Positions 250 through 54,714 of a DNA stretch of 64,000 bases are shown one piece after another (the stretch's first letter is position 1; each line of letters begins with the position of its first letter). The stretch is taken from NCBI GenBank assembly GCA_041659505.1, contig JBAZYF010000001.1:189274-253273 (forward strand), given 5' to 3'. Both the position numbers and the translations under genes were made by a program. Origin of the DNA: Parcubacteria group bacterium. Lineage in GTDB: Bacteria > Patescibacteriota > Minisyncoccia > Moranbacterales > UBA2206. A model generated the notes under the pieces. It was given only the letters and a program-made list of their open reading frames with translations, was not told the DNA's origin and searched no databases.

Positions 250-1632
250 CTATTTCAACATCCAAACCGGAACCAGCACTAAATCTTTGTGCACCATAAA
301 ATCGTTTTTGGTAACGACAACTAACTTGTTACCACTTTTTTTTGCCAACTTCGTGGCAAATTTAAATTTATTGAGCGCAATCTGCTCGCGATATTTCACT
401 TCGACGTATTGATACGTTTTCGCGTCCAAAATATTATCCGTCGCTAAAAAATCCACTTCATCTTTCCGAACCCGCCGGAAAGAAACTGCGGAATAGCTTT
501 TTTGCAAAAGTTGCAAACAATAATTCTCCACCAAAAACCCCATTTTGTAGTTCCCTTGCGCCTCATCTGACCAAGCATAGAACGCCGAAACAAAATTGGG
601 ACTACCCAGGTAGATTTTTTTACCCAAGCGCCGGGATTTTCTGGCCGATTTAGTGAAATTATAGACAAGCTGAATGAGAAAACTTTCAGCGAAATAGTTG
701 AGGTATTTTTTGACCGTTTTTTCGTCGATGCCAATTTCGCGCGCGATGTTGCCCGTCTCAATCACCGATCCGATTTCACCGGCCAAAACTTGAAACAAAA
801 ATTTAAGTTCGTCCACTTTTTCCACTCCGAAAATTCGCACAATATCATATTCAATGGTTTTTTTGTAGATCGCATCGGTGAGATATTTTTTGACCACCGC
901 TAGATTATTTTCCCCAACGATTTCCGGAAATTGACCATAGCGAAGATAGTGTTCAAATTCTTTTTCCATTTCCGCGCCGTATTTTTGGAAAAATTTTTCT
1001 TGTGTTGATGAATTTTTCAAGACGAGGCATTGCCTCGTCTCTACAGCGGATGACTGATAACCGGCAAGCAGTTCTTTTTTGACCTTTTTTAATTCCAAAT
1101 ATTCTTGAAAATCCAACACCGGCAAAGAAAATTCATAGATCCGACCCACCAGACTCTCGGTGGTCTTTTTGCGTAAAAACAAAGAGGAAGAACCACTGAT
1201 AATGAATTTTATCCGCGCGTCAGTGTCATAATAGCGTTTCAAAATATGTTGCCATTTCGGGTTATATTGAATTTCATCAAGAAAAATATACAGCGAACCA
1301 CTTTTTGGTGCGCTTTTTTCCAAGTACGCATTCAGGTAATCCGCAATAGTAATCTTTCCGGGAATAATCGCTTCGTCAAAAGTCAAAAAAAGAATCGCCT
1401 CCGGTTTCACTGTCACGAGCAGTTTTTCAATCAATTGTTTCAGGAGAATCGTTTTTCCCGTACGCCGGAGTCCGACAATGGAAATGATCTGTTTTTTGGC
1501 TAAATAGGGCAAAATTTCACCAAACAACTTCCGCTTATAGCTGATATTTTTCAACTCGGCCAAAAACTCATCCGGCGAATCCCAGTGTTTGTTCTGTCGA
1601 TAAATTTCGGCTATAATAAAGGATTTTTTCAT
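250..1632 (-). CDS. COG1373-type AAA+ ATPase (AAA_14-like N-domain + DUF4143/PD-(D/E)xK-like C-domain), ATPase1
   Basis: Walker A GLRRTGKTIL, Walker B IFLDEIQY, C-terminal D...EVK motif (VDFLATD...YVEVKY); paralogous to 14180..15478 and 21356..22642. Confidence 0.8.
   Translation of the reverse strand: MKKSFIIAEIYRQNKHWDSPDEFLAELKNISYKRKLFGEILPYLAKKQIISIVGLRRTGKTILLKQLIEKLLVTVKPEAILFLTFDEAIIPGKITIADYLNAYLEKSAPKSGSLYIFLDEIQYNPKWQHILKRYYDTDARIKFIISGSSSLFLRKKTTESLVGRIYEFSLPVLDFQEYLELKKVKKELLAGYQSSAVETRQCLVLKNSSTQEKFFQKYGAEMEKEFEHYLRYGQFPEIVGENNLAVVKKYLTDAIYKKTIEYDIVRIFGVEKVDELKFLFQVLAGEIGSVIETGNIAREIGIDEKTVKKYLNYFAESFLIQLVYNFTKSARKSRRLGKKIYLGSPNFVSAFYAWSDEAQGNYKMGFLVENYCLQLLQKSYSAVSFRRVRKDEVDFLATDNILDAKTYQYVEVKYREQIALNKFKFATKLAKKSGNKLVVVTKNDFMVHKDLVLVPVWMLK
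1019..1046. repeat. palindromic element (PE) copy inserted in frame within the ATPase1 CDS (AGACGAGGCA-t-TGCCTCGTCTCTAC)
   Basis: inverted repeat seen directly; translates as ..AVETRQCLVL.. on the minus strand without breaking the frame. Confidence 0.7.
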
Positions 1633-2003: not shown

Positions 2004-2032
2004 GTAGAGACGAGGCAGTGCCTCGTCTAGAC
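2004..2032. repeat. PE copy GTAGAGACGAGGCA-g-TGCCTCGTCTAGAC
   Basis: perfect 10-bp stem with conserved GTAGAGACG flank. Confidence 0.75.
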
Positions 2033-2064
2033 GCCATAGGATTGCGCCATAACGTTTTTAGTCT

Positions 2065-2090
2065 TAGACGTGGCAGTGCCACGTCTCTAC
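2065..2090. repeat. PE copy, stem variant TAGACGTGGCA-g-TGCCACGTCTCTAC
   Basis: compensatory GAGG/CCTC to GTGG/CCAC stem change relative to other copies. Confidence 0.75.
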
Positions 2091-8000: not shown

Positions 8001-8048
8001 ATGTCTGAACCACTGATTCGCACGTGATTTTCCTGATTACACGTGATT
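7994..8048. repeat. ~55-bp direct repeat, left copy (includes the LamG1 start codon and CACGTGATT x2)
   Basis: TTGGCATATGTCTGAACCACTGATTCGCACGTGATTTTCCTGATTACACGTGATT; second copy at 8428-8483 with ~3 mismatches. Confidence 0.8.
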
Positions 8049-8057: not shown

Positions 8058-8447
8058 TTACTTAATATATCTTCTAACTTCCAAACTTTTTGCTCCGAAA
8101 TTAATCAATAGTCCTACTTTAACTTTATAGGCTTCAATGTAATTTATCAACTGAGCAACATTTACTTCTTCCAGTTTTGTGATGGCTTTTAGTTCTACCA
8201 TGATGTCACCATCAACTAGGAAATCGACTCTTCTTTTACCAATCATCGCGGATTCGTAAAAGATATCCATTTCTTTCTCTCTTTCAAATTTCAAATCTTC
8301 TTTGCTAAATTCTATTTCCAGTGCGCGTTGGTAGATTACCTCTTGAAATCCATTGCCTAGATACTGATGAACTTTTTGCGCACAGCCGATAATCTTTCCG
8401 GTTATGTCGGATTTGTAGTATTTATTGTTGGCATATGTCTGAACCAC
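8058..8447 (-). CDS. GxxExxY family protein (PD-(D/E)xK nuclease superfamily; family known from 23S rRNA intervening sequences)
   Basis: GFQEVIY matches the GxxExxY motif; ~125 aa size; C-terminal GLLINFG. ORF begins at a GTG that lies inside the direct repeat. Confidence 0.7.
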   Translation of the reverse strand: MVQTYANNKYYKSDITGKIIGCAQKVHQYLGNGFQEVIYQRALEIEFSKEDLKFEREKEMDIFYESAMIGKRRVDFLVDGDIMVELKAITKLEEVNVAQLINYIEAYKVKVGLLINFGAKSLEVRRYIK

Positions 8448-8483
8448 ATGATTAGCACGTGATTTTCCTGATTACACGTGATT
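8428..8483. repeat. ~55-bp direct repeat, right copy
   Basis: TTGGCATATGTCTGAACCACATGATTAGCACGTGATTTTCCTGATTACACGTGATT; it supplies the first ~6 codons of the GxxExxY ORF. Confidence 0.8.
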
Positions 8484-11500: not shown

Positions 11501-13868
11501 CGGTGCTTGAAAGATATAATCCATCAGCGGGGTCTTGAAAGTTTAACTGATTTGAAGTAATATGAATTTGTTTTTGAAAATCTAAATCAATAATATGATC
11601 TTCGGAAGTATCATTAACATTTCGATAGAACCAGCCAGAAATCGAAAAACTATTGTCGAATGCTGTTGCATCATTTAAAGCACCTACATTTACATAATCA
11701 TCCCCCCCATCAAAACTCCCCCCATTGCCAAATTTTCCTCCCGCAGTCGTAACGCCTCCGGCGGATGTTCCGTTATTATTGTTGTCACTAGCGTCTTTCA
11801 CTTCCCCGCTCGTGCCGCTCCAACTCGCTTCGTCCATTTTCCAATAACCGACCAGGCCGTCGGTGAGCCATTTTGTTGATTCGGAGCCAAAGGCAGCCGA
11901 CGCGCCTTGGGGGGCGCTTTGGCTTGCCAAGCCGGCGTTATAATCCTGCAAAATCTGCGCTTGCGTGCGGGCGTAGGGGTAGATTTTTGGTTCGTCGATG
12001 GAGCCTTGAAACAATGAATCTGTATTAACTGCTCCACCACCAAACCAAGCGCCTATCCGCAATTTATCACCTGTAGGAATTGAAGCAGAACTGGAATCTG
12101 TCCCTTTACTCACACCGTCTAAATACATTTCAAAGTCGTTGCCACTCCGGGTTAAAATGATGTGATGCCATTGATTAGTGGATGGGTCAACTCCGAGAGA
12201 AAAATACAACTGGCCTATTCCGCTGGTTCCAAACCAAAACTCCATGGCCGAATCTCCGCTATTATAAAACCATTCCCAGTCCATACTACCATATTCATCC
12301 CGCTTGCTCATCAATGTTTTATATGCGGATCCCGTTGTCCATGTTTTAGAATTAAACCAAAGAGAAAGAGTAAAATCTCCTGTCATATCAAGACTGCTAT
12401 CGTTGCCCATATCCACATAATCACTCGTCCCATTAAACGAAAGACACTTCCCACTCACACAATCACTCTCCGGCTTCCACGTCGCCCCGGTGATGCTGCC
12501 GTCATTTTTGTTGGCACTTTCATCGTGCGCGACCGCGCCTTGACCTTCATCGAATGACCAATAGGCGACCGGGGCTGGCGATATTTCTTCGGTTCCCAGC
12601 GCGCCAACAGAATAGGTTGACGCTTCGGTGGAGAAATTGGTGGGGAAAATTGTGTAGGTATAGTTAGAAGTATCATTGCGATTGAAACCACTTTCCTCAC
12701 TCGTCCAATTGAATGTCGAGCCATTTTGGGTCGAAGTGATGGTGGTGCCGGTAACAGAGGGAGAAATAATCTGCCTAGCAGAGGCATCATCCACTCTAAA
12801 ACTCTTGCCGACTGGTGAGATGGGGCTCCACCAGTTTGGATCAATGCCTTGAGCTATATCTGCTTTTGTCCTGTACCCACCACAACTAGTCCAGGCTGTA
12901 TCGCCACTGTCAATAGAACATAAGTTATAATAATCAAAAGTTTGGAAAAGACAAGCACCATCTGTTTGATCAACATTGCGCAGCCAGATACTCATATAGT
13001 AAAGTGCACCGGACGTAAATATGATATCCGATGAGGCCCCTGCCGTATTGCCAGTTGCCAAAACATTCAACGAATACGCTCCTGAGCTCCCCGGCCTCGG
13101 ATCAGTCACTCGACTGAGTGTCGCGTACCAGGCATGCCAATCGGAAGGCGGATCGCCAGTTTCAAATCCGGGATTTAATACTAATTCGCTTCCCAGCGAC
13201 TCCCCTGACCCCGCCGCCTTGATATAGCCAATCAATTCTAATCCTGCATTATCGGCAATAAACAGTTTGCTATTCAAATTATTAGTGAGAACGTTGGCAG
13301 CAGAAAAATCGACAAAAGCGGTGCCGTTAACAATGGATAGTTTCATATTCGCTTGCGTCACTGCTCCCGTCTGCGTCTGAGTAAAACCATTTTCCGCACC
13401 GGGGTTGCCATAATATTCCCAAATGGCTTGCTCACCTGCCGGGAAAGTTTCAAAGCTGACATAGACCGAAGTATTGGCCGTTCCGCAACCGGAAACAATC
13501 AGATAGGGCATAACCTTGCCGTCATTCTTGGTGAAACGCAAATCTCCGCAATCGGCTTGGAATTTAGTCGTGTCGGAAGTGTCCACGGTGAGCGCGACAT
13601 AGACATTCGTTTGCACTGCTCCGCTGTTGGTCAGTTGGATTGATTTGCGAAAGGCCCATTTTTCATCCCACCAGGAAGCTTCGGTGCTTCTGCCAGAAAG
13701 CCAGAAGTAAATTGGTAAAATTATTATCACTAATAAAATGGCCAGGGCGAGGGTTTTGGCTTTTTTGGATTGAAAAATTCTTTTCAAAAATTTGGCGAAT
13801 TTAAACAGGCCACGGATGAGGTGGAGCATTAGGCGTTGGAATTTTTGTTTGAGGGTTGGCATTTTCAA
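8544..13868 (-). CDS. giant cell-surface protein LamG2: TM + DUF2341-like + six LamG domains, 1,774 aa
   Basis: same domain motif order as LamG1; N-terminus MKMPTLKQKFQR..., identical C-terminus; real start may be the second ATG (13862). Confidence 0.85.
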   Translation of the reverse strand: MKMPTLKQKFQRLMLHLIRGLFKFAKFLKRIFQSKKAKTLALAILLVIIILPIYFWLSGRSTEASWWDEKWAFRKSIQLTNSGAVQTNVYVALTVDTSDTTKFQADCGDLRFTKNDGKVMPYLIVSGCGTANTSVYVSFETFPAGEQAIWEYYGNPGAENGFTQTQTGAVTQANMKLSIVNGTAFVDFSAANVLTNNLNSKLFIADNAGLELIGYIKAAGSGESLGSELVLNPGFETGDPPSDWHAWYATLSRVTDPRPGSSGAYSLNVLATGNTAGASSDIIFTSGALYYMSIWLRNVDQTDGACLFQTFDYYNLCSIDSGDTAWTSCGGYRTKADIAQGIDPNWWSPISPVGKSFRVDDASARQIISPSVTGTTITSTQNGSTFNWTSEESGFNRNDTSNYTYTIFPTNFSTEASTYSVGALGTEEISPAPVAYWSFDEGQGAVAHDESANKNDGSITGATWKPESDCVSGKCLSFNGTSDYVDMGNDSSLDMTGDFTLSLWFNSKTWTTGSAYKTLMSKRDEYGSMDWEWFYNSGDSAMEFWFGTSGIGQLYFSLGVDPSTNQWHHIILTRSGNDFEMYLDGVSKGTDSSSASIPTGDKLRIGAWFGGGAVNTDSLFQGSIDEPKIYPYARTQAQILQDYNAGLASQSAPQGASAAFGSESTKWLTDGLVGYWKMDEASWSGTSGEVKDASDNNNNGTSAGGVTTAGGKFGNGGSFDGGDDYVNVGALNDATAFDNSFSISGWFYRNVNDTSEDHIIDLDFQKQIHITSNQLNFQDPADGLYLSSTGTITQNTWYHFSIVYDFSGKNLIMYLNGEKNNQTSATLSLLTPNVRMGEYIGGGNYYFPGKIDETRIYNRALSPSEIKKLYEWAPGPVLHLKMDEKVQGDAKTIADDSTYGNNGTTHYGANTTGMDCTVPGKFGSACNFDGVDDWINCGNGSSLQSSGTVSVGMWINSSHAGWNLFAKKQLYNDNGWWFGTDTLGRLYLYILSGGTFRAQNAPTVVTDGKWHFVSATYDGYKVVYYVDGVNTYTYDWGSYLAVGNTSYDLYIASGPSEDPFLGLIDDVRVYNYARTQQQILDDMLGTPEPAGGGGNSQPIANYNFNEGYGSVAHNSGYGGASLAGNLGVGSSAPTWTNDGKNGKALSFDGTNDYVDAGTYGARPEFSVSYWCKPTAGESCEISKYFNGGDWGGEWVVAVDPDHKAHFSDWIGSYHDTTGTTVMQSGQWYHFVFSFDSSDTKKIFINGKLEASLALSGDIESLTAQKIIIGGRSLDNSPAYAGGVFDDVKLYNYALTEDEVKSDYNSGYSAVVGSSGTTSAGAPSNSDSRQYCVPGDTSTCSAPVGEWLMDEKVSGDAKNLNDTSGNGNNGTTVDGANNTGMDCTQPGKVGKACTFDGVDDYAALGTDLISTNTVTVCAWIKPQGKNVFDGIVSNSRFVFMSYNHGANLALTSDDGSSAVISDKTLNLNTWQYVCGVRLSNGTGTLYINGAQSGSSNTGTPVTGYGLAIGNSQIGEHPYGGQIDQVRIYNYARTPAQIAWEYNQGRPIAEWRMNECQGTAIHDDSGNGNTGTLNLGASGQTTTGTCSANANTPWYNGRTGKYAASLNFDGGDDWALVSNSSSLNITGNSMTVSMWAKSSSPGNWEGLVWKSDAPLSYGYLLYTGSAGNLQFGVHTTNSGGVISGDSGNIVWDNSWHFITGIYDGANVYIYVDGIARNHAAATGNIVSSDSVPLYLGSSNNGYFFPGQIDEVKIFNYALTAEQVKQLYNNSSALNFQ

Positions 13869-13884: not shown

Positions 13885-13910
13885 GTAGAGACGAGGCACT
13901 GCCTCGTCTT
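13885..13910. repeat. PE copy GTAGAGACGAGGCA-c-TGCCTCGTCTTGG, ~20 nt upstream of the LamG2 ATG
   Basis: on the gene strand: ...CGTCTCTACgggggaataataaaatttgaaaATG. Confidence 0.75.
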
Positions 13911-13945
13911 GGGCATTATTTTTCACCTCGTCTTGGGTTAAATTT
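13900..13945. promoter_or_regulatory. direct-repeat array of CCTCGTCTTGG half-sites (~27-bp spacing, 3 copies including the PE arm) in the LamG2 leader
   Basis: cctcgtcttgggcattatttttcacctcgtcttgggtta; parallels the 4-copy array at 21148-21250. Confidence 0.5.
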
Positions 13946-13991
13946 TTCTGCGTTTTGCTGTTGTTGGTTTGCGCATTGACGTTGTTAGTTC

Positions 13992-14017
13992 TAGACGTGG
14001 CAATGCCACGTCTCTAC
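13992..14017. repeat. PE copy, stem variant TAGACGTGGCA-a-TGCCACGTCTCTAC
   Basis: same GTGG/CCAC variant as 2065-2090. Confidence 0.75.
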
Positions 14018-14049: not shown

Positions 14050-14078
14050 ATTATACCGTAATTTTCACTATTTTACAA
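14050..14078 (-). promoter_or_regulatory. candidate sigma70-type promoter on the minus strand: TTGTAA, 17-bp spacer, TATAAT
   Basis: minus-strand reading ttgtaaaatagtgaaaattacggTATAATat; lies between the ATPase2 stop and the PE/iteron leader of LamG2. Confidence 0.45.
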
Positions 14079-15529: not shown

Positions 15530-15597
15530 ATTGAGATGTCAATTTAATCTATTTTCCCCTGAATGTTGTTGTTTTGCGCGTTGCTGTTTTCAGGTCT

Positions 15598-15623
15598 AGA
15601 CGAGGCAATGCCTCGTCTCTACA
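15598..15623. repeat. PE copy TAGACGAGGCA-a-TGCCTCGTCTCTAC
   Basis: inverted repeat; preceded by the conserved block GTTGTTGTTTTGCGCGTTGCTGTTTTCAGG also seen upstream of LamG2 and LamG3. Confidence 0.75.
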
Positions 15624-15666: not shown

Positions 15667-18600
15667 CTACTGGAAGTTGAGCGCGCTAGAATTATTATAC
15701 AATTGTTTCACTTGCTCGGCGGTGAGGGCGTAGTTGAAGATTTTGACTTCGTCGATTTTTCCTCCAAACGGATAACTAGAATATGTATTATCACCCATAA
15801 AAACATCGCCTGACGAATCATCAATCCTGGTGCCGCTTCCCCTGTTAGTATATGCAGCTACTATCTCTTCTCCGTTTATAAATAAATGAACACTATTAGC
15901 GCCTATCCCGCCGGAATAGACACCACAAACATACTGCCAGCTATTAAAGACTATTAAATTATCTGGCGTTTCCCTTAAAGCAATATAGTCACTCGTCGTA
16001 TTTGCAATTGACATGCCTAAGTGATTAGTATTCCAGATATACAAATCCCACCCAAAATAAGAGAGGCCATGTTTTGCAACAATCAAGGCATCAGTTTTAG
16101 TCGGATAAATCCAGGCGCAAGCTGAAAATGTTGCCATATTATCCAATGCTACTGGCGATCCCGCATTCACATAATCCCCCACCCCATCAAAATTCAAACT
16201 GGCGCCGTATTTTCCGGTTCGTCCGTTGTACCAGGGGGTGTCGGCGTTGGCACTGCAAGTGCCGGCGGTTGTTTGACCAGAGGCGCCCAGATTGATCGTC
16301 CCGTCATTACGATTCAAACTTTCATCATGCACCGTCGCGCCTTGGCATTCATCAAAATTCCACTGCGCCACCGGTTGCCCTTGGTTATATTCCCAAGCAA
16401 TTTGCGCCGGAGTGCGGGCGTAGTTGTAGATGCGGACTTGGTCGATTTGGCCGGTCCAATAATCTGCGCTAGTCGCTGGATCTTTTCCAACCGTAAGATT
16501 ATAAACACCCGAAACGACATCTAGGGTTTGGGCGACCGGAGTGGCCGCGGATATGCCATCAACATAAATTCTAAGATAACTGCCATCAAATGTTCCAGCA
16601 ACGTAGTGCCACGAATTATCATTGTAGCCATTTTTATCGCTCACAATATATATATAGCTACTTGAATCATGTAATTGCAAAGCAAAATCACCGGGATTAT
16701 CACCATTGGCAAATAACATATATCCATTTCTGTCAGTATCCCAGTTAGCATTTCCGACTATTGCTGGCCAATTTACTGTACTAGTAGTAAATTTAACCCA
16801 AGCCGAAACTGTTCCAGTGTGGGTCAGCTGGATTGATGGATCATTTCCCAGATCCGCATAATCGTCCACCCCATCAAAGCTACACGCTGTCCCCGCTTTT
16901 CCCGGTACACTACAATCCATTCCGGTTGTATTGGCGCCGTAATGTGTTGTGCCGTTGTTGCCGTTGCCTGATGTGTCATAAATCGTTTTTGCATCGCCTT
17001 TGACTTTTTCTTCCATCTTCCATTCCCCCACCGGCGCGGCGCAAGCGGTTGTGTCGCCCGGCACGCAATATTCTCCTCCGGCGGAATTGGTCGGCGCGCC
17101 AGTCGAAGCGGCCGTGCCCGCCGAACCCCACTGCGCCGAAGCACCGGAGTTGTAATCGGTTTTAATTTCGTCTTCGGTGAGAGCGTAGGGGTAGATTTTG
17201 ACGTCGTCAAGCTGTCCACCGAAATAATTTATCGGAGGATCATATGAGTTATTTCTGCCAATATTTAAATCATCCGATGAATATTGTAATGAACCTCCTG
17301 CCCCATAACCATTTGCCGAATAAATTGTTGCGATTTCCTTACCATCAATATATGTTTTTGAATCTGAAGCATCTCCCCGCACTGGAGAAAATGTCACCAC
17401 CAGATGGTGCCAATTATTATCTGGATATGGGAGTGTGCCGCATGGCGTTTCCCAATAGGGATAACCGTTGTTTGTTTGTATTTCAAAATGCGTTCCTCCT
17501 GCATATAGACACGTAGTGGAGAAAGAATAACTCTTTCCTGAAGTAGTGCCGTAGGCCTTATTTATCATCGTTCCACCCCCCCCATTTTGTTTTATCCAAG
17601 TAGAAAGTGTAAGTGCAGCCGGACGTAGGGCTGTACTATCCGGCACGCTGACATAATCATTCACCCCATCAAAACTCAAAGCCTTGCCATTTTTGCCGTC
17701 ATTAGTCCAAGTCGGCGCGGATGAGCCGACGCCCAGATTTGCATTCGTAGAGACGCATTGCGATGCGTCTCTACAACCCAGCCCGGAATTATGCGCCACA
17801 GAGCCGTAGCCTTCGTTGAAATCATAATTTACAATTGGTTGGCCATTGCCACCTCCGCCTGCTGGCTCCGGCGTGCCAAGCATATCCTCTAAAATCTGCT
17901 GTTGGGTGCGGGCGTAGTTGTAGATTCTCACATCATCCATTTTTCCTTTGAGCGCTTCATCCCAACTTGAGGTGCCAAAAACAAAACCGGCATTATCATT
18001 AGCAATTGGCGCTTCATTGCCCGTACCGCTAACCCAGCTTCCACTTACCGGGTTTCCATTCAAAAAAGCCTTGATGGAACTGCCTTGCCCGAAAGTATAT
18101 TCGAGGGTGAGATACGACCACTCATTCAATGGCACACCAGCACTAGCTACCTGCCACGACGACCAATCAGAATTATCCACTCGACGATAATAAAGAGTCG
18201 GATAAGCTCCAATTAGCGCAAAGCCATAGTTTTCATTCAATGTGGCTCCTTTGAAAATAAGATTGCTCTCACCGGCATATGCTTCGGGATTGACCCAAAG
18301 GGAAATTGTAATCGTTTTGCCCAATTGGAAATCATAGGGGCTGTTAGTGCCGGAATCAGGAAAATTCGCTTCATCGGGAACGCTACTGTCGAAAACTAGT
18401 GCACTGCCATATTTTCCCGTTGTCCAAACCGGGTCCTCGGCTTCGGCGGAACTGGTCGTACCCAAAACTCCTTCTCCAGTCGGTTGCTCGGAATTATAGA
18501 AATTCTGACCGGTTTTTTCATCAAATTTCCAATAGGCTACCGGGCCGGGTGCCCACTGGTAGAGTTTTTTAATTTCAGCGGGCGAAAGCGCGCGGTTGTA

Positions 18601-21162
18601 GATGCGGGTTTCGTCGATTTGGCCATCAAAAAAATAAGTAGTCATTTGGCCAATTTGAGCGCCGTTTCCCGAATCAGCTCCAGTATTTATATCTGGAACA
18701 CCTGTTGAAATTCTTGTACCCTGACTCACGCCATTAACAAAAACTTCTTGCAATTTCGTATTACGTTTAAATGTGGCAACAATATGATACCAAGTATCTG
18801 CTTCCATTAACTTAACATTATCAAAATCATCACCATAAAAACCAAAGGTTAGATTATTACTATTACCTCTAATCCCTAATGAAACGCGCCTATCAGTGCC
18901 ATTTGCATCGCCTATGTCAAAAAACCATTGATATCTATCAAGAGTATCTATTTTAATCCATGATTCAATTGAAAAATCGCCCGTATCAAAAGTATTAATA
19001 TATGGTGCTTGCACATAATCATCCACCCCATCAAAACTCCCCCCATTCCCAAATTTTCCTCCGGCGGTCGTGACGCCTCCGGCGGATGTTCCGTTATTAT
19101 TGTTGCCACTGGCATCTTTCACTTCTCCGCTCGTGCCGTTCCAACTCGCTTCGTCCATTTTCCAATAGCCGACCAGGCCGTCGGTCAGCCATTTTGTTGA
19201 CTCTGAACCGAAAGCAGCCGACGCGCCTTGGGGGGCGCTTTGGCTTGCCAAGCCTGCATTATAATCCTGCAAAATCTGCGCTTGCGTGCGGGCGTAGGGG
19301 TAGATTTTAACTTCATCGATATAGCCGGGAAAAAATTCGTGGTAAGAGCCACTTGAATAATAGGCTCCGATGATGACCTGCTGATCATTGACAACATTTA
19401 TACCCCCGCCATATGATCCATTATATTGAGAATCAAACTTGCCATTAATATAAAGCTTCTGATAACCAGTCGTCGCATCGTATGTTGCAGACATATAGTA
19501 CCACTTATTAATTTCCAGTGTCCCACCGACTAAATAGTCTCCGGTTATTACTGGCTGCTCTGTTTCATCCAGAGTGGTATAATAATTGAAAGTATCCAAT
19601 CCTTTATTTACAACAGTCTTAAAATTCGCATTATCCGCTGTCAATTTGATCCAATGACTGACAGTATAGCCATTGGGTGAATCCAGTGAATTACTATCTG
19701 GAATTGTCGCATAAGCGCTGGTTCCGTTGAAATATAGACACCCTCCACTCACACACTCACTCTCCGGCTTCCACGTCGCACCGGTGATGGTGCCGTTGTT
19801 TTTGTTTGATGTTTCGTCGTGCGCCGTTGTGCCTTGGCCTTCGTCGAATGACCAATAGCCGACCGGTCCGCCGGGGCTAGTTTCCTGCTTTCCCGAAACA
19901 GTCAAAAACGCCAATGGATTATTCTGATTAGCATATTCCGTGGCGATCCATTCGGGGTTGCGGACAGTGTTGGAAATTTTAACTTCTTCAATGCTTCCTG
20001 GAAATTGACTTGTATAACCCTGCCTCGCTCCAATAACAAACCCGTTACCAATGTGCCAAGGATCATCAATATCAGTCGGTCCCGCAACAAGATTGCCATT
20101 GATATATAACTTTGCCATATTATCAACGTCTATTGTCGCACAAACATATTGCCACTGGTCAAGTATGATACTGCCATTTGCACTATTTAGAACGCCTCGA
20201 TTATTATAAATGTTTAAATAATAAACCCCACCATCATTACCCATATTAAACTCGAAATCAGCATCACCAATAAATTGAGACATCCAACTATCATCCGCTT
20301 GTGGCTTTATCCAAGCGCAACCCGTTATCGGATAATCATCCAAGTCAACAGCTGTATCCACATAATCATCCCCCCCATCAAAATCCAACCCTTTCCCCAC
20401 TTTCGCGTCAACCGAATCCCCACTCGTCATTGTGCCATTACTTGTTCCATTGTTCGCGTTAGCGGTGGAGTCCAGCATTTGCGGAGCCGTGCCCGAAGGA
20501 TCCTGGTTCATATGTTGGACCATTTTGTAGTTTCCATCCCACACATTCATTTTGTCTTGTTGGCTAGTGGCGGTAGCATTGCCATAGTAAAGATAAATTT
20601 CCGTATCTTTGGCTTGAGTGAGATTGGGTAATTTTACCCAAGCAATGAGGGCGCCAGTGCCGGAGGTGTAGGATTCGATTTCGTGCGAGAGTTTTTTTCC
20701 GGTGGAATCGGTGAATACCAAATCATCGCCGTCTGTTTGAGCACCGGTGATGAGATTGGTGTCCGTGATGGAAACTAGCACCGGAAAGTTTTGCAACTCC
20801 CCTGCCACTTGGGATTTATTGATGGTGATTTTTTTGCGAAATCCCCAAGTGTCGTTCCACCAGGAGGCTTGGGTGTTTCTTCCTGAGAAGAAAAAATAGA
20901 TGGGTAAAATTATGAGGACGAGAAGAATGGCAAGGGCTACTTGCCTGTAAGCCACCCAGTGGCGCAAGCTTGCGCCACCGGGTGGCTTCGGAGAACCGGA
21001 AGTTAAGGTCGGACCTTTTGGGTGCCTAAGGTCCGACCTTAGTTTTTTCAAAAATCTGGCAAATTTAAACAGGCCACGGAGGATGGTTAGCATTGTGCGT
21101 TGGAATTTTTGTTTTAGGGTTGGCATTTTTGAATTTTTTGTTTCCCTGTAGAGACGAGGCAC
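15667..21162 (-). CDS. giant cell-surface protein LamG3: TM + DUF2341 + six LamG domains. The ORF-caller start is a GTG inside a PE; the likely true start is the ATG at ~21126 (MPTLKQKFQR...)
   Basis: N-terminus after residue 12 matches LamG1/2. DUF2341 signature ASWWNDTWGFRKKITINKSQV...NFPVLV...YLYYGN. Six LamG motif repeats; shared C-terminus. Confidence 0.85.
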   Translation of the reverse strand: MPRLYRETKNSKMPTLKQKFQRTMLTILRGLFKFARFLKKLRSDLRHPKGPTLTSGSPKPPGGASLRHWVAYRQVALAILLVLIILPIYFFFSGRNTQASWWNDTWGFRKKITINKSQVAGELQNFPVLVSITDTNLITGAQTDGDDLVFTDSTGKKLSHEIESYTSGTGALIAWVKLPNLTQAKDTEIYLYYGNATATSQQDKMNVWDGNYKMVQHMNQDPSGTAPQMLDSTANANNGTSNGTMTSGDSVDAKVGKGLDFDGGDDYVDTAVDLDDYPITGCAWIKPQADDSWMSQFIGDADFEFNMGNDGGVYYLNIYNNRGVLNSANGSIILDQWQYVCATIDVDNMAKLYINGNLVAGPTDIDDPWHIGNGFVIGARQGYTSQFPGSIEEVKISNTVRNPEWIATEYANQNNPLAFLTVSGKQETSPGGPVGYWSFDEGQGTTAHDETSNKNNGTITGATWKPESECVSGGCLYFNGTSAYATIPDSNSLDSPNGYTVSHWIKLTADNANFKTVVNKGLDTFNYYTTLDETEQPVITGDYLVGGTLEINKWYYMSATYDATTGYQKLYINGKFDSQYNGSYGGGINVVNDQQVIIGAYYSSGSYHEFFPGYIDEVKIYPYARTQAQILQDYNAGLASQSAPQGASAAFGSESTKWLTDGLVGYWKMDEASWNGTSGEVKDASGNNNNGTSAGGVTTAGGKFGNGGSFDGVDDYVQAPYINTFDTGDFSIESWIKIDTLDRYQWFFDIGDANGTDRRVSLGIRGNSNNLTFGFYGDDFDNVKLMEADTWYHIVATFKRNTKLQEVFVNGVSQGTRISTGVPDINTGADSGNGAQIGQMTTYFFDGQIDETRIYNRALSPAEIKKLYQWAPGPVAYWKFDEKTGQNFYNSEQPTGEGVLGTTSSAEAEDPVWTTGKYGSALVFDSSVPDEANFPDSGTNSPYDFQLGKTITISLWVNPEAYAGESNLIFKGATLNENYGFALIGAYPTLYYRRVDNSDWSSWQVASAGVPLNEWSYLTLEYTFGQGSSIKAFLNGNPVSGSWVSGTGNEAPIANDNAGFVFGTSSWDEALKGKMDDVRIYNYARTQQQILEDMLGTPEPAGGGGNGQPIVNYDFNEGYGSVAHNSGLGCRDASQCVSTNANLGVGSSAPTWTNDGKNGKALSFDGVNDYVSVPDSTALRPAALTLSTWIKQNGGGGTMINKAYGTTSGKSYSFSTTCLYAGGTHFEIQTNNGYPYWETPCGTLPYPDNNWHHLVVTFSPVRGDASDSKTYIDGKEIATIYSANGYGAGGSLQYSSDDLNIGRNNSYDPPINYFGGQLDDVKIYPYALTEDEIKTDYNSGASAQWGSAGTAASTGAPTNSAGGEYCVPGDTTACAAPVGEWKMEEKVKGDAKTIYDTSGNGNNGTTHYGANTTGMDCSVPGKAGTACSFDGVDDYADLGNDPSIQLTHTGTVSAWVKFTTSTVNWPAIVGNANWDTDRNGYMLFANGDNPGDFALQLHDSSSYIYIVSDKNGYNDNSWHYVAGTFDGSYLRIYVDGISAATPVAQTLDVVSGVYNLTVGKDPATSADYWTGQIDQVRIYNYARTPAQIAWEYNQGQPVAQWNFDECQGATVHDESLNRNDGTINLGASGQTTAGTCSANADTPWYNGRTGKYGASLNFDGVGDYVNAGSPVALDNMATFSACAWIYPTKTDALIVAKHGLSYFGWDLYIWNTNHLGMSIANTTSDYIALRETPDNLIVFNSWQYVCGVYSGGIGANSVHLFINGEEIVAAYTNRGSGTRIDDSSGDVFMGDNTYSSYPFGGKIDEVKIFNYALTAEQVKQLYNNSSALNFQ
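17747..17774. repeat. PE copy inserted in frame inside the LamG3 CDS (GTAGAGACGCAT-tgcg-ATGCGTCTCTAC)
   Basis: encodes CRDASQCVST. Paralogs LamG1/LamG2 have ..SLAGNLGVGSS.. here with no palindrome; flanking DNA aligns on both sides. Confidence 0.8.
20951..21040. repeat. two further palindromes inserted in frame in the LamG3 N-terminal region: 36-bp palindrome centred on AAGCTT, and a paired AAGGTCGGACCTT/AAGGTCCGACCTT
   Basis: adds ~35 aa (LRSDLRHPKGPTLTSGSPKPPGGASLRHWVAYRQV) absent from LamG1/2/4 between the basic leader and the TM helix. Confidence 0.7.
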
Positions 21163-21172
21163 TGCCTCGTCT
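21148..21172. repeat. PE copy GTAGAGACGAGGCA-c-TGCCTCGTCTTAGG, ~20 nt upstream of the LamG3 ATG
   Basis: gene strand: ...CGTCTCTACagggaaacaaaaaattcaaaaATG. Confidence 0.75.
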
Positions 21173-21250
21173 TAGGTTAATATTTTCACCTCGTCTTGGA
21201 CATTATTTTTCATCTCGTCTTGGGTTAATATTTTCACCTCATCTTGATGT
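21173..21250. promoter_or_regulatory. iteron-like array, ~4 copies of TTAATATTTTCACCTCGTCTTGG (~27-bp period)
   Basis: ttaatattttcacctcgtcttggaca / ttatttttcatctcgtcttgggttaa / tattttcacctcatcttgatg seen directly. Confidence 0.55.
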
Positions 21251-21310
21251 TAATTTTTCTGCGTTTTGTTGTTGTTATTATTGGTTTGTACGTCGACGTG
21301 GTTCTTTTCC

Positions 21311-21336
21311 TAGACGCCCCAACGGGGCGTCTCTAC
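21311..21336. repeat. PE copy, stem variant TAGACGCCCC-aa-CGGGGCGTCTCTAC
   Basis: different inner stem (GCCCC/GGGGC) with the same outer TAGACG/CGTCTCTAC. Confidence 0.75.
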
Positions 21337-46500: not shown

Positions 46501-49500
46501 GATTTGTCCCGATGATCCGGCCGCGGTGATTTGCATTGCTCCGACTCCATTGCCATAAACAATTCCATTGGGCGTGAAAGTAGTCGCGCCGGTTCCGCCG
46601 TTGGCCACTGGGAGCGTACCAGTCACATGGCTAGCCAGATCAATTTGAGCAAAGGTAATCGCTTGACCGATGATTGACGCATAGGTTTGGCCGGCGAGCG
46701 TGACTGGGGCGTGGATGTCGCTAGTCAAAGCTAGTGTGCCAGAGGTATCGGGGAAAGTATAGGTGCGGTTAGCACTCAAGTCGCCCACATCTACTGTGCC
46801 ATAGAACGCTCCGCCATTGGATTCCATGATTTGCAATTCACTGCCGGCATTAGCGAGTACGATGTCAAATGCGCCGGTTTGGTTCCAATTGGAAGTCAGG
46901 CTATCCAGCGCAAACGACGCCGTCCAACCTTCTCCGGCCACGCCGGAAATGGCAATTCCATTGCCACTTGTTGCACCGAGCAGATAATTTCCCACCGTGT
47001 CAGTTCCTAGTGCGACTGAATTGGGCTGAATCGTTGACGCGCCCGAAGCCGCAATAAAAACATCGCCGGTCATTGGCACAAATACTGGCACCCCGCTGGA
47101 ATTGGCCACGACAAACTGCGCTTCCGTTCCTGCTGCTGTAATGTTAATTCCACTCGTGCCATTACCGTAGAGAATGCCGTTGGTGGCAAAAGTCGCTCTG
47201 CCTGTTCCACCGTTGCTGATTGGCAACGTACCCGTCACATCAGTTGTCAAATCAATCTGCCCGCGCACTATGTCTTGCCCGGCAAGCGTGATGTAGTCAT
47301 AAAGACCGCTCACACTCAAATTCGTCTGAGTAATAATTGTTTGCCCGGTGCCATTGCCAATCACCAATTGATCATTGTCCACGTCCCATTCAATCCGGCC
47401 TTCAGCGGTTGGTGTCGGCGTGGCTGATTGAACCAGTGTAAGATTTGATCCGGAAATCGTTCCGCCGGAAATCGTCAGCGCATCAGAAACATAGGCATCC
47501 GTAACAGGAGTCGCATTCCAGATACCGGCCGTCACTGTTCCCAGCGAACTGATAGTTGATGTATTGCGCCATTGTAAAGCAGATCCGGTATTGCTCAAAA
47601 ATTGACCCGCTGATCCAACAGCCATTCTTTGCCATTTGATGATTCCCCCGCCTTGATTAGTTCCCACAATCATATCGCCCTCCAAAGGCGAAGCAGCCAC
47701 GACATCCGGATGAGAAAGCGAAAGTAAATTATGCGCTCCGACAAAGGGGGAATTTTGCCAGCCAGGCGCTCCGCCCAAAACACCAAAAATTTGTCCGTTC
47801 GATCCAATCGGCAAACGTGTCAGCGCTCCGCCGGAAGAATAATATAGCAGATCGCCTGGAACATAACTAGACAGTCCTGTTCCGCCATTGCCAGTTGGCA
47901 ATGTGCCCGTCACATCCGTGCCTAAATCAATCGCGTTTAGTGTAAGCACTTGATTGGCATCGATTGAGAGATAATCCAAAGAACCAGCCAACGTGACTGC
48001 GCTGTGACCAAGTGCCGACAAATTACCCCATGCCGGTGTACCATCGGCAGAAATTGATAATACTTGGCCGATTGTTCCCGCGGATATCTTAGAGAAAGTT
48101 GAGCCGGAAGAATAATACAGCATATCGCCGGAAGTAAAAGCAGAAAGTCCCGTGCCTCCACTGGCAATTGGCAAAATGCCTTGCGTTTCGCTTGCCAGAT
48201 CAACTTTTCCGACCGTGAATTTTTGGCCAGAAAGCGTGAGAAACTTGGAGCCGGAAATGGTAAATTTCAAACGTTTGTCGTTGCCCAAAAGTAGCTGATT
48301 ACTCCCCGTTCCGGTTGGCAAATTGGAAATGGCAATTTTGCCTTGCGCGTCCAGAGCAACAATGTCCCCGGCCGAGACGCCAACTTTTTTGCCATTGAGG
48401 AGCAGTGAATTTCCGGCATTGAGCGCATAAAGCGGAGTGGCCAGTCTTTTTCTCGGTGCCATCTCGCTATCCTCTCCCACGCGGATGCCCAAAAAGAACT
48501 GACCAGCTTGGATGGTTGTGAAAATTGGCAAGTCAGTGACTTGTCCCAGGTTAACGCGGAAAATACCATCCTTAACCGTGACAGTTTGCGTTTCTTCCCA
48601 AACGCGATTGGCGCTGTCTGTGTCGGAAGGATAAGCGTCAATTTGGGTGCGATCTGTGTCATAGATGGCAAAACGCACAGCATAGCTTCCGTCCTCTACT
48701 TGCCCGTTGGCGCCGGAAAGCGCTCCGGTCAATTGAATAATTCTCGGTTTTGTGACAATGGTTGTCGCGTCACTCGCATTTTGCGTCGTCGTATTGTCCG
48801 ACGCAACAATCGCTTCCGCCAAAACCATTTCTTGTCCTCCTTCGCTAAAGCTACGGCGTGACGAGCCCGAATTGGATTTGGCAATAGTTTTTTCATCTCC
48901 CATCGGCGCATACGCCAAATCTTGTCCCCCTGCCAAATTTCCTTCGCTACGCTGAAGCTCTTTGACACGCCGTAGTTCATCAACGGAGGAGGTTAGCGAA
49001 AGCGAGGCCAACTGATATTTTTCCGGCAAAGCGTAGGCCACTGTCGCGAAAAGCAAAATAATTCCAACCACCAAAGCCGGATATTTAGCATTGACAAGAA
49101 TTAAATTTTTCTTGGCTCGGAGTGCCAGAGAATTTTCTTGCCTTTTTTCTTTCGAAGCCAATTCAAAATTATGCGCGGATTTTTCTTTTTTGACAGAAAG
49201 ATTTTTTTTGCCTTTGAAAAAAATTGAAATTATTTTTTCTGATGATTTTAGTAATTTTAGATTCGCAAAAATTTGGCGGATAATTTTTAGCAAAAACCAA
49301 GCCAGAAAAATACCGGAAATCAGAACCGCAAATGAGACTGCAAGTTGTTCAATCAGCACCAAATCTAGTTTTTCGCCGGAAAAAATCGCACCGGCAAAAA
49401 TGGCTTGTTTGCGGGAATTTTTACCCGTGCAGACGAGGCAGTGCCTCGTCTCTGCCGCTTTTTTGCCACCACAAATAGCCCTTTCCCAAACTTGGGTTAA

Positions 49501-49714: not shown

Positions 49715-49742
49715 GTAGAGACGAGGCACTGCCTCGGCTTGG
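49715..49742. repeat. PE copy, degenerate right arm (GTAGAGACGAGGCA-c-TGCCTCGGCTTGG)
   Basis: seen directly. Confidence 0.65.
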
Positions 49743-49781
49743 TCACATTTCCAATCTATTTTTTGCAAAAATACCTAGCCT

Positions 49782-49829
49782 GTAGAGACGCCTGCCTGTC
49801 CGGTAGGCAGGCAATTCAATGCGTCTAGC
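49782..49829. repeat. long PE variant GTAGAGACG-[GCCTGCCT-gtccggt-AGGCAGGC]-caattcaatg-CGTCTAGC
   Basis: conserved outer arms with a different 8-bp inner hairpin. Confidence 0.6.
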
Positions 49830-49862
49830 GGTTTTAATAATCGGGTAAATTTTACACAAAAA

Positions 49863-49887
49863 AAGACGTGGCAGTGCCACGTCTCTA
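49863..49887. repeat. PE copy AGACGTGGCA-g-TGCCACGTCTCTAC
   Basis: GTGG/CCAC stem variant. Confidence 0.75.
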
Positions 49888-49912
49888 CAAGTAAATTTAT
49901 TTTCGCAAATTT

Positions 49913-50992: not shown

Positions 50993-51039
50993 GTTTTGAT
51001 TATAGCATAGTTTTTATTTTTCGTCTTTTTATAAATCCC

Positions 51040-52535: not shown

Positions 52536-52543
52536 ATTGTTTT

Positions 52544-53518: not shown

Positions 53519-53524
53519 TGCTTT

Positions 53525-54712: not shown

Positions 54713-54714
54713 AA

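What the first reader, a model, noticed from the sequence alone, without database searches (positions are those of the whole stretch)
13885..13945. Iteron-like arrays of the PE half-site (CCTCGTCTTGG) in the leaders of LamG2 and LamG3
Upstream of both LamG2 (13885-13945) and LamG3 (21148-21250) the palindromic element nearest the ATG is followed by 2-4 direct repeats of TTTTCACCTCGTCTTGG at ~27-bp spacing. Each repeat reuses the right arm of the PE. Direct repeats of a hairpin half-site next to the full palindrome suggest a DNA-binding protein that recognises the PE arm and regulates these genes, or a repeat-expansion process. In both genes the last PE ends ~20 nt before the ATG and is followed by a G-rich, Shine-Dalgarno-like GGGGGAA/AGGGAAA.
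Basis: seen in the sequence. Interest (0 to 1): 0.55.

Follow-up and report, generated by a model that had tools for sequence, protein, structure and literature searches.

The report
Partial tandem duplications inside REP doublets
The "iteron-like" repeats are real, but they are most likely short tandem duplications of one arm of a known type of mobile bacterial palindrome (a GTAG-tagged REP element) sitting upstream of two duplicated giant surface-protein genes, and nothing indicates a new regulatory site.

Summary
The repeats exist and are far beyond chance, but several details need correcting. The period is 24 nt, not about 27. There is one extra copy upstream of LamG2 and three upstream of LamG3, beside the arm of the palindrome itself. 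The genes lie on the minus strand.

The palindromic element (PE) is a "double-foot" GTAG REP: GTAGAGACG, a variable self-complementary core, then CGTCTCTAC. The exact 25-mer occurs in at least 120 stretches of MAGs labelled Patescibacteria, Omnitrophota, WOR-3, Calditrichaceae and Bacteroidales. In 10 of those loci it lies in frame inside a RAYT-like Y1 transposase gene. That is the published hallmark of TnpA_REP subclass 2.4.

In the window the PEs form head-to-head doublets with a conserved spacer. The same doublet occurs without an array 3' of LamG1 and, truncated to one PE plus spacer, 3' of LamG3. The 24-nt unit joins the foot-less PE arm to a sequence resembling the spacer tail, so it duplicates the spacer/PE junction.

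LamG2 and LamG3 share it because they are paralogous. LamG1, 86% identical up to its ATG, has no PE. The unit was found nowhere else. No regulator gene, phasing or conservation supports iterons, and the G-run is too far from the ATG to be a Shine-Dalgarno site.

Verdict: an ordinary feature, a new member of a known kind.

The parts
13885..13912 (+). PE2 of the LamG2-leader doublet (E2): GTAGAGACGAGGCACTGCCTCGTCTTGG. The GTAG foot faces outward, towards the LamG2 ATG at 13862. The inner end is TTGG instead of the canonical CTAC.
13913..13936 (+). The single extra 24-nt unit of E2 (GCATTATTTTTCACCTCGTCTTGG): an A/T-rich tail plus a copy of the foot-less PE arm.
13937..13990 (+). Conserved spacer of the doublet. 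On the coding strand it reads AACTAACAACGTCAATGCGCAAACCAACAACAGCAAAACGCAGAAAAATTTAAC. Its 3' tail resembles the tail of the repeat unit.
13991..14017 (-). PE1 of E2: GTAGAGACGTGGCATTGCCACGTCTAG. Its stem differs from PE2 by a compensatory change (GTGG/CCAC against GAGG/CCTC).
14050..14078 (-). Promoter-like site TTGTAA-N17-TATAAT (10 of 12 matches), upstream of PE1. If it is real, the whole doublet lies in the LamG2 5' UTR.
   Evidence: a consensus match only
21148..21175 (+). PE2 of the LamG3-leader doublet (E4): GTAGAGACGAGGCACTGCCTCGTCTTAG. It ends 21 nt before the LamG3 ATG at 21126.
21176..21247 (+). Three extra 24-nt units of E4 (21176-21199, 21200-21223, 21224-21247). Unit tails alternate between two types, giving a 48-nt super-period. 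The last unit is degenerate (CCTCATCTTGA).
21248..21309 (+). Spacer of E4, homologous to the E2 spacer.
21310..21336 (-). PE1 of E4: GTAGAGACGCCCCGTTGGGGCGTCTAG, with a third stem variant. It starts 19 nt after the ATPase3 stop codon.
2004..2090 (-). E1: the same head-to-head doublet (PE 2062-2090 on the minus strand, PE 2004-2033 on the plus strand) without any array. It lies 3' of LamG1 and is followed by the same GGGG-A/T flank, 357 nt from the next ATG.
15540..15622 (-). E3: a single PE (15596-15622) plus the conserved spacer, 3' of LamG3. The second PE and the array are absent.
49715..49888 (.). PE cluster upstream of the 7019-aa gene. It contains a PE2-type copy with the same CCAAG inner end (49715-49742), a PE with a long nested core (49782-49827), and a PE followed by a T-run (49863-49888, terminator-like).
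1017..1044 (-). PE copy inside the AAA_14/DUF4143 ATPase gene 250-1632. It encodes AVETRQCLVL and falls in a gap relative to both paralogues.
17747..17774 (.). Perfect double-foot PE (GTAGAGACGCATTGCGATGCGTCTCTAC), in frame inside LamG3. It encodes GCRDASQCVST in a linker that is gapped in sister repeats.
49425..49453 (-). Degenerate PE, in frame near the N-terminus of the 7019-aa ORF (AETRHCLVCT).

Best explanation
The palindromic element is a GTAG-tagged, 'double-foot' REP: 5' GTAGAGACG, a variable self-complementary core, then CGTCTCTAC 3'. This is the kind of REP associated with RAYT/TnpA_REP transposases of subclass 2.4.

In this genome the REPs occur as head-to-head doublets (BIME- or REPIN-like) with a conserved spacer. 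They sit in the intergenic gaps of a tandemly duplicated ATPase/LamG gene cluster.

In one such doublet, the junction between the spacer tail and the inner, foot-less arm of the second REP was duplicated in tandem as a 24-nt unit. The likely cause is replication slippage or template switching at the hairpin (inferred). The doublet was then copied along with the gene when the LamG2/LamG3 ancestor duplicated. The array later changed in copy number (1 against 3 extra units, including a 48-nt two-unit step) and drifted in sequence.

The extra half-sites have no partner arm and no GTAG foot. They are therefore probably inert by-products. Any effect on expression would come from the whole REP doublet, which is transcribed with LamG2/LamG3 and is predicted to fold into a stable RNA structure just upstream of the start codon, as REP/BIME elements do in other bacteria (inferred, not shown).
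For: The PE belongs to a known REP class:
- There are 13 exact GTAGAGACG sites in the window against 0.11 expected.
- The stems differ by compensatory changes, and all common cores in other genomes are self-complementary. 172 of 249 copies end in CTAC.
- 10 of those loci carry a Y1_Tnp ORF whose best NCBIfam hit is REP_Tyr_transpos, with a PE in frame between the HuH and Tyr motifs. Its best PDB hit is 4ER8, E. coli TnpA_REP.
- This matches the published description of subclass 2.4 and its double-foot REPs (PMC6006769).

The array sits inside a REP doublet:
- E1 to E4 align as PE, conserved spacer, 0/1/3 extra units (none in the truncated E3), PE, G-run.
- E1 (a full doublet) and E3 (one PE plus spacer) lie 3' of LamG genes and have no array.
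- Head-to-head dimers with conserved spacers, and REP clusters reiterated with flanking DNA, are described for GTAG REPs (PMC3733652).

The array arose by duplication:
- The period is 24 nt, units match at 77-82%, and there is a 48-nt super-period.
- The unit tail resembles the spacer tail.
- The LamG2 and LamG3 leaders are paralogous, whereas LamG1 homology stops at the ATG.
- Short direct duplications of a PE arm next to a full PE also occur sporadically in other genomes, for example L093, L010, L027 and L030.

There is no sign of conservation or function:
- The unit is absent elsewhere, and homologue leaders lack PEs.
- In the RNA ensemble the extra half-sites pair with the 3' arm at P about 0. 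PE1:PE2 (E2) pair at 0.87-1.0 and the PE2 hairpin (E4) forms at 0.97.
- There is no Rfam match.
Against: - No RAYT gene lies in the 64-kb window, and the source genome could not be found in the collections. The link between REP and RAYT is therefore shown only in other genomes.
- The 11-nt half-site cores are somewhat better conserved between units (3 changes in 44 positions) than the two tail types are. That could mean weak selection, or gene conversion against the PE arm.
- Strictly defined arm-only duplications are rare elsewhere: 1 among 249 strand-wise PE hits. An array of 3 extra units is therefore unusual.
- No expression, population or binding data exist, so the slippage mechanism is inferred rather than shown.
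Confidence: 0.72

Rival explanations
1. Iteron-like operator. A sequence-specific DNA-binding protein recognises the double-stranded half-site CCTCGTCTTGG. It binds cooperatively to the direct repeats and the adjacent palindrome and regulates LamG2 and LamG3.
For: - There are direct repeats of a palindrome arm next to the full palindrome, close to the start codon, in two genes.
- The half-site cores are slightly better conserved than the unit tails.
Against: - The two arrays are one event inherited by paralogy.
- LamG1 and LamG4 leaders, and the leaders of outside homologues, lack them.
- The unit occurs nowhere else.
- The 24-bp period is 2.3 helical turns, so successive sites face different sides of the helix (established DNA geometry).
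- Units are only 65-85% alike, with changes in the core (CCTCATCTTGA, TCTCGTCTTGG).
- The same PE lies 3' of genes and inside coding sequence, so it is not an operator.
- The neighbouring genes are AAA_14/DUF4143 ATPases, with no recognisable regulator or initiator.
Confidence: 0.06
2. RNA-level control of the leader. The extra 5' arms (AAGACGAGG) compete with the true 5' arm for the single 3' arm. Alternatively, their GAGGUGA motifs act as decoy ribosome-binding sites or drive short upstream ORFs. Either way they would tune translation or stability of the LamG mRNAs.
For: - The leaders fold much better than shuffles (z = -5.3 and -4.6).
- Each unit carries GAGGTGA, a near-consensus Shine-Dalgarno sequence.
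- In LamG2 one unit is followed after 6 nt by an ATG that opens a 13-codon uORF running through the hairpin (read).
- A promoter-like site upstream places the doublet in the 5' UTR.
Against: - The ensemble probability that any extra half-site pairs with the 3' arm is about 0.
- The uORFs are not conserved between the two paralogous leaders (13 codons against 5 or fewer).
- Most genes in the window show no Shine-Dalgarno sequence.
- There is no Rfam family and no occurrence elsewhere, so covariation cannot be tested.
- The stability signal comes from the REP hairpins, not from the units.
Confidence: 0.12
3. Footprint of enzymatic processing of the REP hairpin rather than polymerase slippage. 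Cleavage at or near the hairpin tip, by the cognate RAYT or by an SbcCD-type nuclease, followed by repair synthesis, generates duplications that end at the loop.
For: - In the window, and in sporadic cases elsewhere (L093, L030, L010, L027), the duplicated copy ends at or within a few nt of the loop.
- RAYT-like genes co-occur with this PE in other genomes.
Against: - The evidence is purely circumstantial and rests on few cases.
- The repeated arm lacks the GTAG foot that TnpA_REP recognises (PMC6006769).
- Slippage at hairpins predicts the same breakpoints.
Confidence: 0.08
4. Assembly artefact. The arrays result from misassembled repeat reads.
For: The window probably comes from a metagenome-assembled genome rich in repeats. 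This is an inference from gene content and from the relatives found.
Against: - The units differ from one another at several positions.
- The two arrays are embedded in unique, alignable flanks. Collapse or expansion artefacts normally give identical units.
Confidence: 0.02

Closest known systems
'Double-foot' GTAG REP sequences associated with TnpA_REP/RAYT subclass 2.4 (Bertels group 4); Quentin et al. 2018, PMC6006769
   Same: - 5' GTAG and 3' CTAC feet on a long hairpin.
- Many copies per genome, and occurrence across several phyla.
- In-frame insertions in unrelated genes.
- In-frame insertion inside the RAYT gene between the HuH and Tyr motifs, seen here in 10 loci of other genomes.
- The RAYT-like proteins carry NH[LVI]H, WQ and YIxxNP motifs.
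   Different: - The hosts here are labelled mainly Patescibacteria, Omnitrophota, WOR-3 and Calditrichaceae, rather than Cyanobacteria and Bacteroidetes.
- No RAYT lies in this window.
- Most copies in the window have a degenerate inner foot (CGTCTAG or CGTCTTGG).
- Half-arm tandem arrays are not part of the published description I read.
Head-to-head (HH) REP dimers, BIMEs and REPINs; Di Nocera et al. 2013, PMC3733652; Bertels & Rainey 2011, PMC3116915
   Same: - Two REPs in inverted orientation with the GTAG ends outside.
- A conserved spacer of tens of nt, and heterodimers with different stems.
- Predicted folding into one long hairpin (E2).
- Location between co-directional genes.
- Clusters in which REPs are reiterated together with flanking DNA.
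   Different: - Here only one arm of one REP plus 13 nt of spacer is reiterated, not whole REPs or dimers.
- The doublet copies in the window are partly explained by segmental gene duplication rather than transposition.
Iterons of plasmid and phage replication or regulatory regions
   Same: Short direct repeats in a non-coding region, next to an inverted repeat that shares the same half-site.
   Different: - The period is 24 bp and out of helical phase.
- There are only 1 and 3 extra copies, and they have diverged.
- There is no Rep or regulator gene, AT-rich origin or DnaA boxes.
- The arrays are not conserved in relatives.
- The palindrome is a dispersed mobile repeat.
Rickettsia palindromic elements (RPE) and other intragenic REPs (from my own knowledge; intragenic REPs are also reported in PMC3733652)
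   Same: Palindromic repeats inserted in frame into protein-coding genes without breaking them. Here these are ATPase1, LamG3 and the 7019-aa gene.
   Different: RPEs are about 100-150 bp and restricted to Rickettsia. The PE here is 28-29 bp and of the GTAG type.

Membership tests
Double-foot GTAG REP (RAYT subclass 2.4 type) | [quoted passage not shown] | tested here: met
   - A perfect copy lies at 17747-17774.
- All 13 GTAGAGACG sites lie in PE copies.
- 172 of 249 copies in other genomes end in CTAC.
- In the window's dimers the inner foot is degenerate (TAG or TTGG).
Double-foot GTAG REP (RAYT subclass 2.4 type) | Stem maintained by complementary changes among copies | tested here: met
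   Cores seen are GAGGCANTGCCTC, GTGGCANTGCCAC, GCCCCGTTGGGGC and GCATTGCGATGC in the window, plus CATTGCAATG, CGATTAATCG, CCCCGCCGGGG and others elsewhere. All are self-complementary.
Double-foot GTAG REP (RAYT subclass 2.4 type) | Repeated many times in a genome, mostly extragenic, occasionally in frame inside genes | tested here: met
   - About 14 copies lie in 64 kb, 3 of them in frame in coding sequence.
- Several MAGs contributed 4-9 loci each, even though the scan was truncated.
Double-foot GTAG REP (RAYT subclass 2.4 type) | Cognate TnpA_REP gene (HuH NHxH, WQ, YIxNNP), often with a REP inserted in frame between HuH and Y | tested here: inconclusive
   - Met in other genomes: 10 of 120 loci, with Pfam Y1_Tnp and NCBIfam REP_Tyr_transpos at 57-67 bits (below the cutoff of 80), and the PE encoding CRDEALPRLY.
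- Not met within this window, which has no such ORF.
- The rest of the source genome is unavailable.
Double-foot GTAG REP (RAYT subclass 2.4 type) | Cleavage and joining of the single-stranded REP by the RAYT | not testable with these tools
   This needs biochemistry.
HH REP dimer / REPIN / BIME | Two REPs in inverted orientation, GTAG ends outside, separated by a conserved spacer of tens of nt | tested here: met
   E1 (2004-2090), E2 (13885-14017) and E4 (21148-21336) align with a shared spacer. E3 is a remnant with one PE plus spacer.
HH REP dimer / REPIN / BIME | The dimer can fold into one long hairpin | tested here: met
   - E2: PE1 pairs with PE2 at P 0.87-1.0.
- E4: the two PEs fold separately, but the outer feet pair at P 0.68.
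HH REP dimer / REPIN / BIME | The dimer replicates as a unit to unrelated sites in the genome | tested here: inconclusive
   - There are four copies in the window, but E2 and E4 are explained by gene duplication.
- The spacer was not found in the 120 other loci.
- A similar dimer with a different spacer occurs in L072.
Iterons / operator arrays | Three or more near-identical direct repeats (about 17-22 bp) spaced in helical phase | tested here: not met
   The period is 24 bp, with 1 and 3 extra units that match at 77-82% (65% for adjacent units in LamG3).
Iterons / operator arrays | Adjacent gene for the cognate binding protein (Rep or regulator) | tested here: not met
   The neighbours are AAA_14+DUF4143 ATPases and Laminin_G_3/DUF2341 giant proteins.
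Iterons / operator arrays | Conservation of the array at homologous or co-regulated loci | tested here: not met
   - The array is absent from the LamG1 and LamG4 leaders and from homologue leaders.
- It is absent from 126 loci and, as a two-unit pattern, from JGI metagenomes.
Shine-Dalgarno site (for the G-run) | Purine-rich anti-SD complement about 5-10 nt upstream of the start codon | tested here: not met
   - 17 nt separate GGGGG/AGGGA from the ATG.
- The same G-run follows E1, 357 nt from any ATG.
Phase-variable tandem repeat (contingency locus) | Near-identical units, with copy number polymorphic between strains or reads | not testable with these tools
   The units have diverged, which argues against high slippage rates. 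No reads or sister strains were available.

The most novel reading that the evidence does not exclude
The arm-only arrays could be functional or mechanistically informative.

One possibility is that they are fossils of how double-foot REPs are processed, namely a break at the hairpin tip followed by re-synthesis. That would give a sequence-level handle on the still unknown amplification mechanism of RAYT-associated REPs.

The other possibility is that spare 5' arms in single-stranded DNA or RNA modulate formation of the REP hairpin. This would turn the copy-number difference (1 against 3) into a tuning knob for expression of paralogous giant LamG surface proteins in a CPR-type bacterium.
Probability: 0.1. 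Interest if true: 0.5.

Novelty: new member of a known kind. Interest (0 to 1): 0.2.

Why it matters
The main value is for annotation and as a caution. What looks like an operator or iteron array in front of two giant adhesin-like genes is the debris of a mobile palindrome.

It also shows three further things:
- The RAYT subclass 2.4 type of double-foot REP, with one identical 25-29-nt sequence, is present in uncultivated lineages labelled Patescibacteria, Omnitrophota, WOR-3 and Calditrichaceae.
- It populates the intergenic gaps of a tandemly duplicated ATPase/LamG cluster.
- It has inserted in frame into three genes here, including giant surface-protein genes.

These elements may shape mRNA structure and promote rearrangement in such loci, but that was not tested here.

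Tried and rejected
- I looked for the source genome by exact protein look-up (Ddl). It is not on record.
- I searched 5.8 billion proteins with the LamG2 N-terminus. The best hit is only 42-57% identical. The leaders of the two homologues examined (L125, L126) have no PE, so a comparative test of the leader was impossible.
- A metagenome scan for two adjacent units gave 4 hits, all chance matches in coding KDE-type repeats without PEs.
- A viral-contig scan for the 29-mer PE gave no hits.
- Rfam showed nothing at gathering threshold across the window, and nothing meaningful at E <= 1 around the LamG2 leader. No tRNA genes were found.
- A literature search for the PE sequence itself returned only primer and cloning hits (BsmBI sites). 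A search for Patescibacteria plus REP returned nothing relevant.
- CRISPR-like array: rejected, because both the 'repeat' and the 'spacer' parts of the 24-nt unit are repeated.
- Promoter elements created by the units: rejected, because the scan finds none in the LamG3 leader and only one upstream of PE1 in LamG2.
- Conserved uORF: rejected, because it differs between the paralogous leaders.
- RNA arm competition: rejected, because the pairing probability is about 0.
- A strict search for arm-only duplications next to PEs in other genomes found one clear case, L093. Looser criteria gave a handful. The phenomenon recurs but is rare.

Full report
**1. Observation**

All genes in this part of the window lie on the minus strand. 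The layout is:
- Laminin_G_3/DUF2341 giant genes: 2136-8000 (LamG1), 8544-13862 (LamG2), 15667-21126 (LamG3) and 22729-27990 (LamG4).
- A 7019-aa ORF at 28516-49575.
- AAA_14+DUF4143 ATPase genes at 250-1632, 14180-15478 and 21356-22642.

The half-site CCTCGTCTTGG with up to 1 mismatch occurs 7 times against 0.58 expected. Every hit is either an arm of a palindromic element (PE) or a unit of the two arrays.

The 17-mer TTTTCACCTCGTCTTGG occurs once in the LamG2 leader (13920) and three times in the LamG3 leader (21183, 21207 and 21231, with 0, 1 and 2 mismatches). That is 4 matches against 0.2 expected.

The period is 24 nt, not about 27. On the coding strand the layout is:
- LamG2: PE1 (14017-13991), spacer, one unit CCAAGACGAGGTGAAAAATAATGC, PE2 CCAAGACGAGGCAGTGCCTCGTCTCTAC, 22 nt, ATG.
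- LamG3: PE1 (21336-21310), spacer, three units, PE2, 21 nt, ATG.

**2. What the palindrome is**

GTAGAGACG occurs 13 times in the window against 0.11 expected. The copies share GTAGAGACG ... CGTCT(CTAC). They differ in a self-complementary core, with compensatory changes such as GAGG/CCTC, GTGG/CCAC, GCCCC/GGGGC and GCATTGC/GCGATGC.

The MAGs are labelled Moranii-, Buchanan-, Komeili-, Magasanik-, Falkow- and Saccharibacteria, Omnitrophota, WOR-3, Calditrichaceae and Bacteroidales. Some are labelled Gammaproteobacteria, which I doubt, because one of these (L088) is syntenic with this window at about 70% identity.

In those loci the canonical form is a perfect 29-mer, GTAGAGACGAGGCA-N-TGCCTCGTCTCTAC. 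Other cores in the same loci are also palindromic. The flanks show no strong target motif, although the PE often sits at the centre of a longer local palindrome.

I searched the ORFs of those loci with Y1-transposase sequences recalled from memory, used only as probes. I then confirmed the hits with Pfam, NCBIfam and PDB. This showed RAYT-like genes with these properties:
- Pfam Y1_Tnp, with NCBIfam REP_Tyr_transpos as best hit at 57-67 bits (cutoff 80).
- Best PDB hit 4ER8, E. coli TnpA_REP.
- Motifs MPNH[LVI]HGI, WQxRFYDHIIRN and YIxxNP.

In 10 loci the PE lies inside that gene, in frame, between the HuH and Tyr motifs, where it encodes CRDEALPRLY. Other PE variants occupy the same position in L032 and L011.

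This is the published signature of TnpA_REP subclass 2.4 (Bertels group 4). That subclass has 'double foot' REPs with 5' GT[AG]G and 3' C[TC]AC, REPs inserted in frame within tnpA_REP between HuH and Y, and a distribution scattered over phyla (PMC6006769). The PE therefore belongs to a known kind of element. No RAYT gene lies in the window itself. The 29-mer is absent from the viral collection.

**3. The doublets**

An alignment of the PE-bearing intergenic regions shows that four of them are homologous composite elements. These are E1 (3' of LamG1, 2004-2090), E2 (LamG2 leader), E3 (3' of LamG3, 15540-15622) and E4 (LamG3 leader). The full element runs as follows:
- PE in forward orientation.
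- Spacer (ACGTCAACGCGCAAACCAACAACA...).
- 0 (E1), 1 (E2) or 3 (E4) extra units.
- PE in reverse orientation.
- GGG(G)-A/T flank.

E3 keeps only the first PE and the spacer.

These are head-to-head heterodimers with a conserved spacer, as described for GTAG REPs (PMC3733652). The element is therefore not specific to LamG leaders. It follows that the G-run after PE2 is part of the element's flank and not a ribosome-binding site. Three observations support this:
- The G-run is 17 nt from the ATG in E2 and E4.
- It is 357 nt from any start codon in E1.
- Most genes in the window have no Shine-Dalgarno sequence.

**4. Origin of the array**

Each unit consists of 11 nt of the inner PE2 arm, the one without the GTAG/CTAC foot, plus 13 A/T-rich nt. 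The A/T-rich part resembles the 3' tail of the spacer (GAAAAATT(T)AAC). The unit is therefore a duplication of the spacer/PE2 junction.

In LamG3, unit tails of two types alternate. Identity is 85% at an offset of 48 nt but 65% at 24 nt, which indicates a two-unit duplication step.

The LamG2 and LamG3 leaders are paralogous: 13781-13936 matches 21045-21199 at 86.6%. LamG1 is 85.6% identical to LamG2 up to the ATG but has an unrelated, PE-free leader. The two arrays are thus one event that was inherited and then changed in copy number.

Short direct duplications of a PE arm beside a full PE occur sporadically in other genomes:
- L093 has an 18-nt duplication inside the RAYT gene.
- L030, L010 and L027 have duplications of 19-25 nt.

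In all of these the copy ends at or near the hairpin loop. This fits slippage or template switching at a hairpin. That mechanism is inferred, not shown.

**5. Tests of function**

- DNA-binding (iteron) reading. No independent half-sites exist and there is no conservation. A two-unit pattern gave only chance hits in JGI metagenomes, and the 17-mer is absent from 126 loci. Homologue leaders have no PE. No regulator gene is adjacent, and the period is out of helical phase.
- RNA reading. The leaders fold much better than shuffles (z = -5.3 and -4.6), but this is due to the REPs. In E2, PE1 pairs with PE2 in one long hairpin (P 0.87-1.0). In E4, PE2 folds on itself (P 0.97) and the outer feet pair (P 0.68). 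The extra half-sites pair with the 3' arm at P about 0.
- Upstream ORFs. The units contain GAGGTGA and short uORFs, but these differ between the two leaders.
- Promoters. A good promoter-like site (TTGTAA-N17-TATAAT, 14078-14050) lies upstream of PE1 in LamG2. None lies between ATPase3 and LamG3. The doublet is probably transcribed in both cases, as 5' UTR or as intercistronic RNA.
- Known RNA families. No Rfam family matches.

**6. Conclusion**

The interpretation as an iteron-like regulatory array is not supported.

The best explanation, at confidence about 0.7, is a partial tandem duplication inside a head-to-head dimer of double-foot GTAG REPs that was carried along by paralogous gene duplication. 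Any biological effect most likely comes from the REP hairpins themselves, through mRNA structure near the start codon. This is by analogy with REP/BIME elements and is not shown here.

The finding is a new member of a known kind, and interest is low.

Noticed in passing
L062:3296-3928, L082:4946-5578, L043:2298-2891, L038:857-1714, L093:3011-4030, L067:2637-3197, L032:2530-3252, L011, L059: In other genomes the same PE lies in frame inside a RAYT-like Y1 transposase gene, between the HuH and Tyr motifs, where it encodes CRDEALPRLY. Other PE variants occupy the same spot in L032 and L011. This matches the published feature of TnpA_REP subclass 2.4 (PMC6006769). Here it is seen in MAGs labelled Patescibacteria and Omnitrophota, among others.
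   Followed up: yes
window 1017-1044, 17747-17774, 49425-49453: PE copies are inserted in frame in three protein-coding genes. ATPase1 gains AVETRQCLVL, which is gapped in its paralogues. LamG3 gains GCRDASQCVST in a repeat linker. The 7019-aa ORF gains AETRHCLVCT.
   Followed up: partly
window 7994-8048 and 8428-8483: A 55-nt direct repeat (97-100% identical, 434-435 nt apart) brackets the PDDEXK_3 gene (8058-8447). It includes the LamG1 start-codon region, so the small nuclease-fold gene looks like a cassette inserted with duplication of the LamG1 leader. The repeat is 83-94% identical to a stretch in L020 (Moraniibacteriota MAG).
   Followed up: partly
window 27957-27986 and 28351-28517: The 23S_rRNA_IVP-family gene (27995-28339) is flanked by AATTTTG/TTCAAAA heptamer runs and by a 52-nt tandem repeat (2 copies, 92% identical). 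A similar stretch (76-79% identity) occurs in L094.
   Followed up: no
window 52119-52240 and 53380-53530: Other short intergenic repeats (including a 25-nt tandem unit, TTTGACATTTGGAATTGGAAATTGA) share 70-91% identity with stretches in MAGs from other assemblies (L032, L040, L016, L012, L056). These may be further dispersed repeat families.
   Followed up: no
window 1-50000 versus 50000-64000: All PE copies lie in the part of the window holding the LamG/ATPase/giant-gene cluster. None lies in the housekeeping part (lgt, aminotransferase, ddl and others).
   Followed up: no
window 49863-49888: A PE followed directly by a T-run (GTAGAGACGTGGCACTGCCACGTCTTTTTTTG) lies 25 nt after the stop codon of gene 49913-50992. 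It looks like a REP serving as an intrinsic terminator.
   Followed up: no
L008, L037, L040, L065, L091 (flanks of the PE): In several genomes the 29-mer PE sits exactly at the centre of a longer local palindrome, for example cataaaaaa-PE-ttttttatg. It is as if the PE had inserted into the loop of an existing hairpin or terminator.
   Followed up: no
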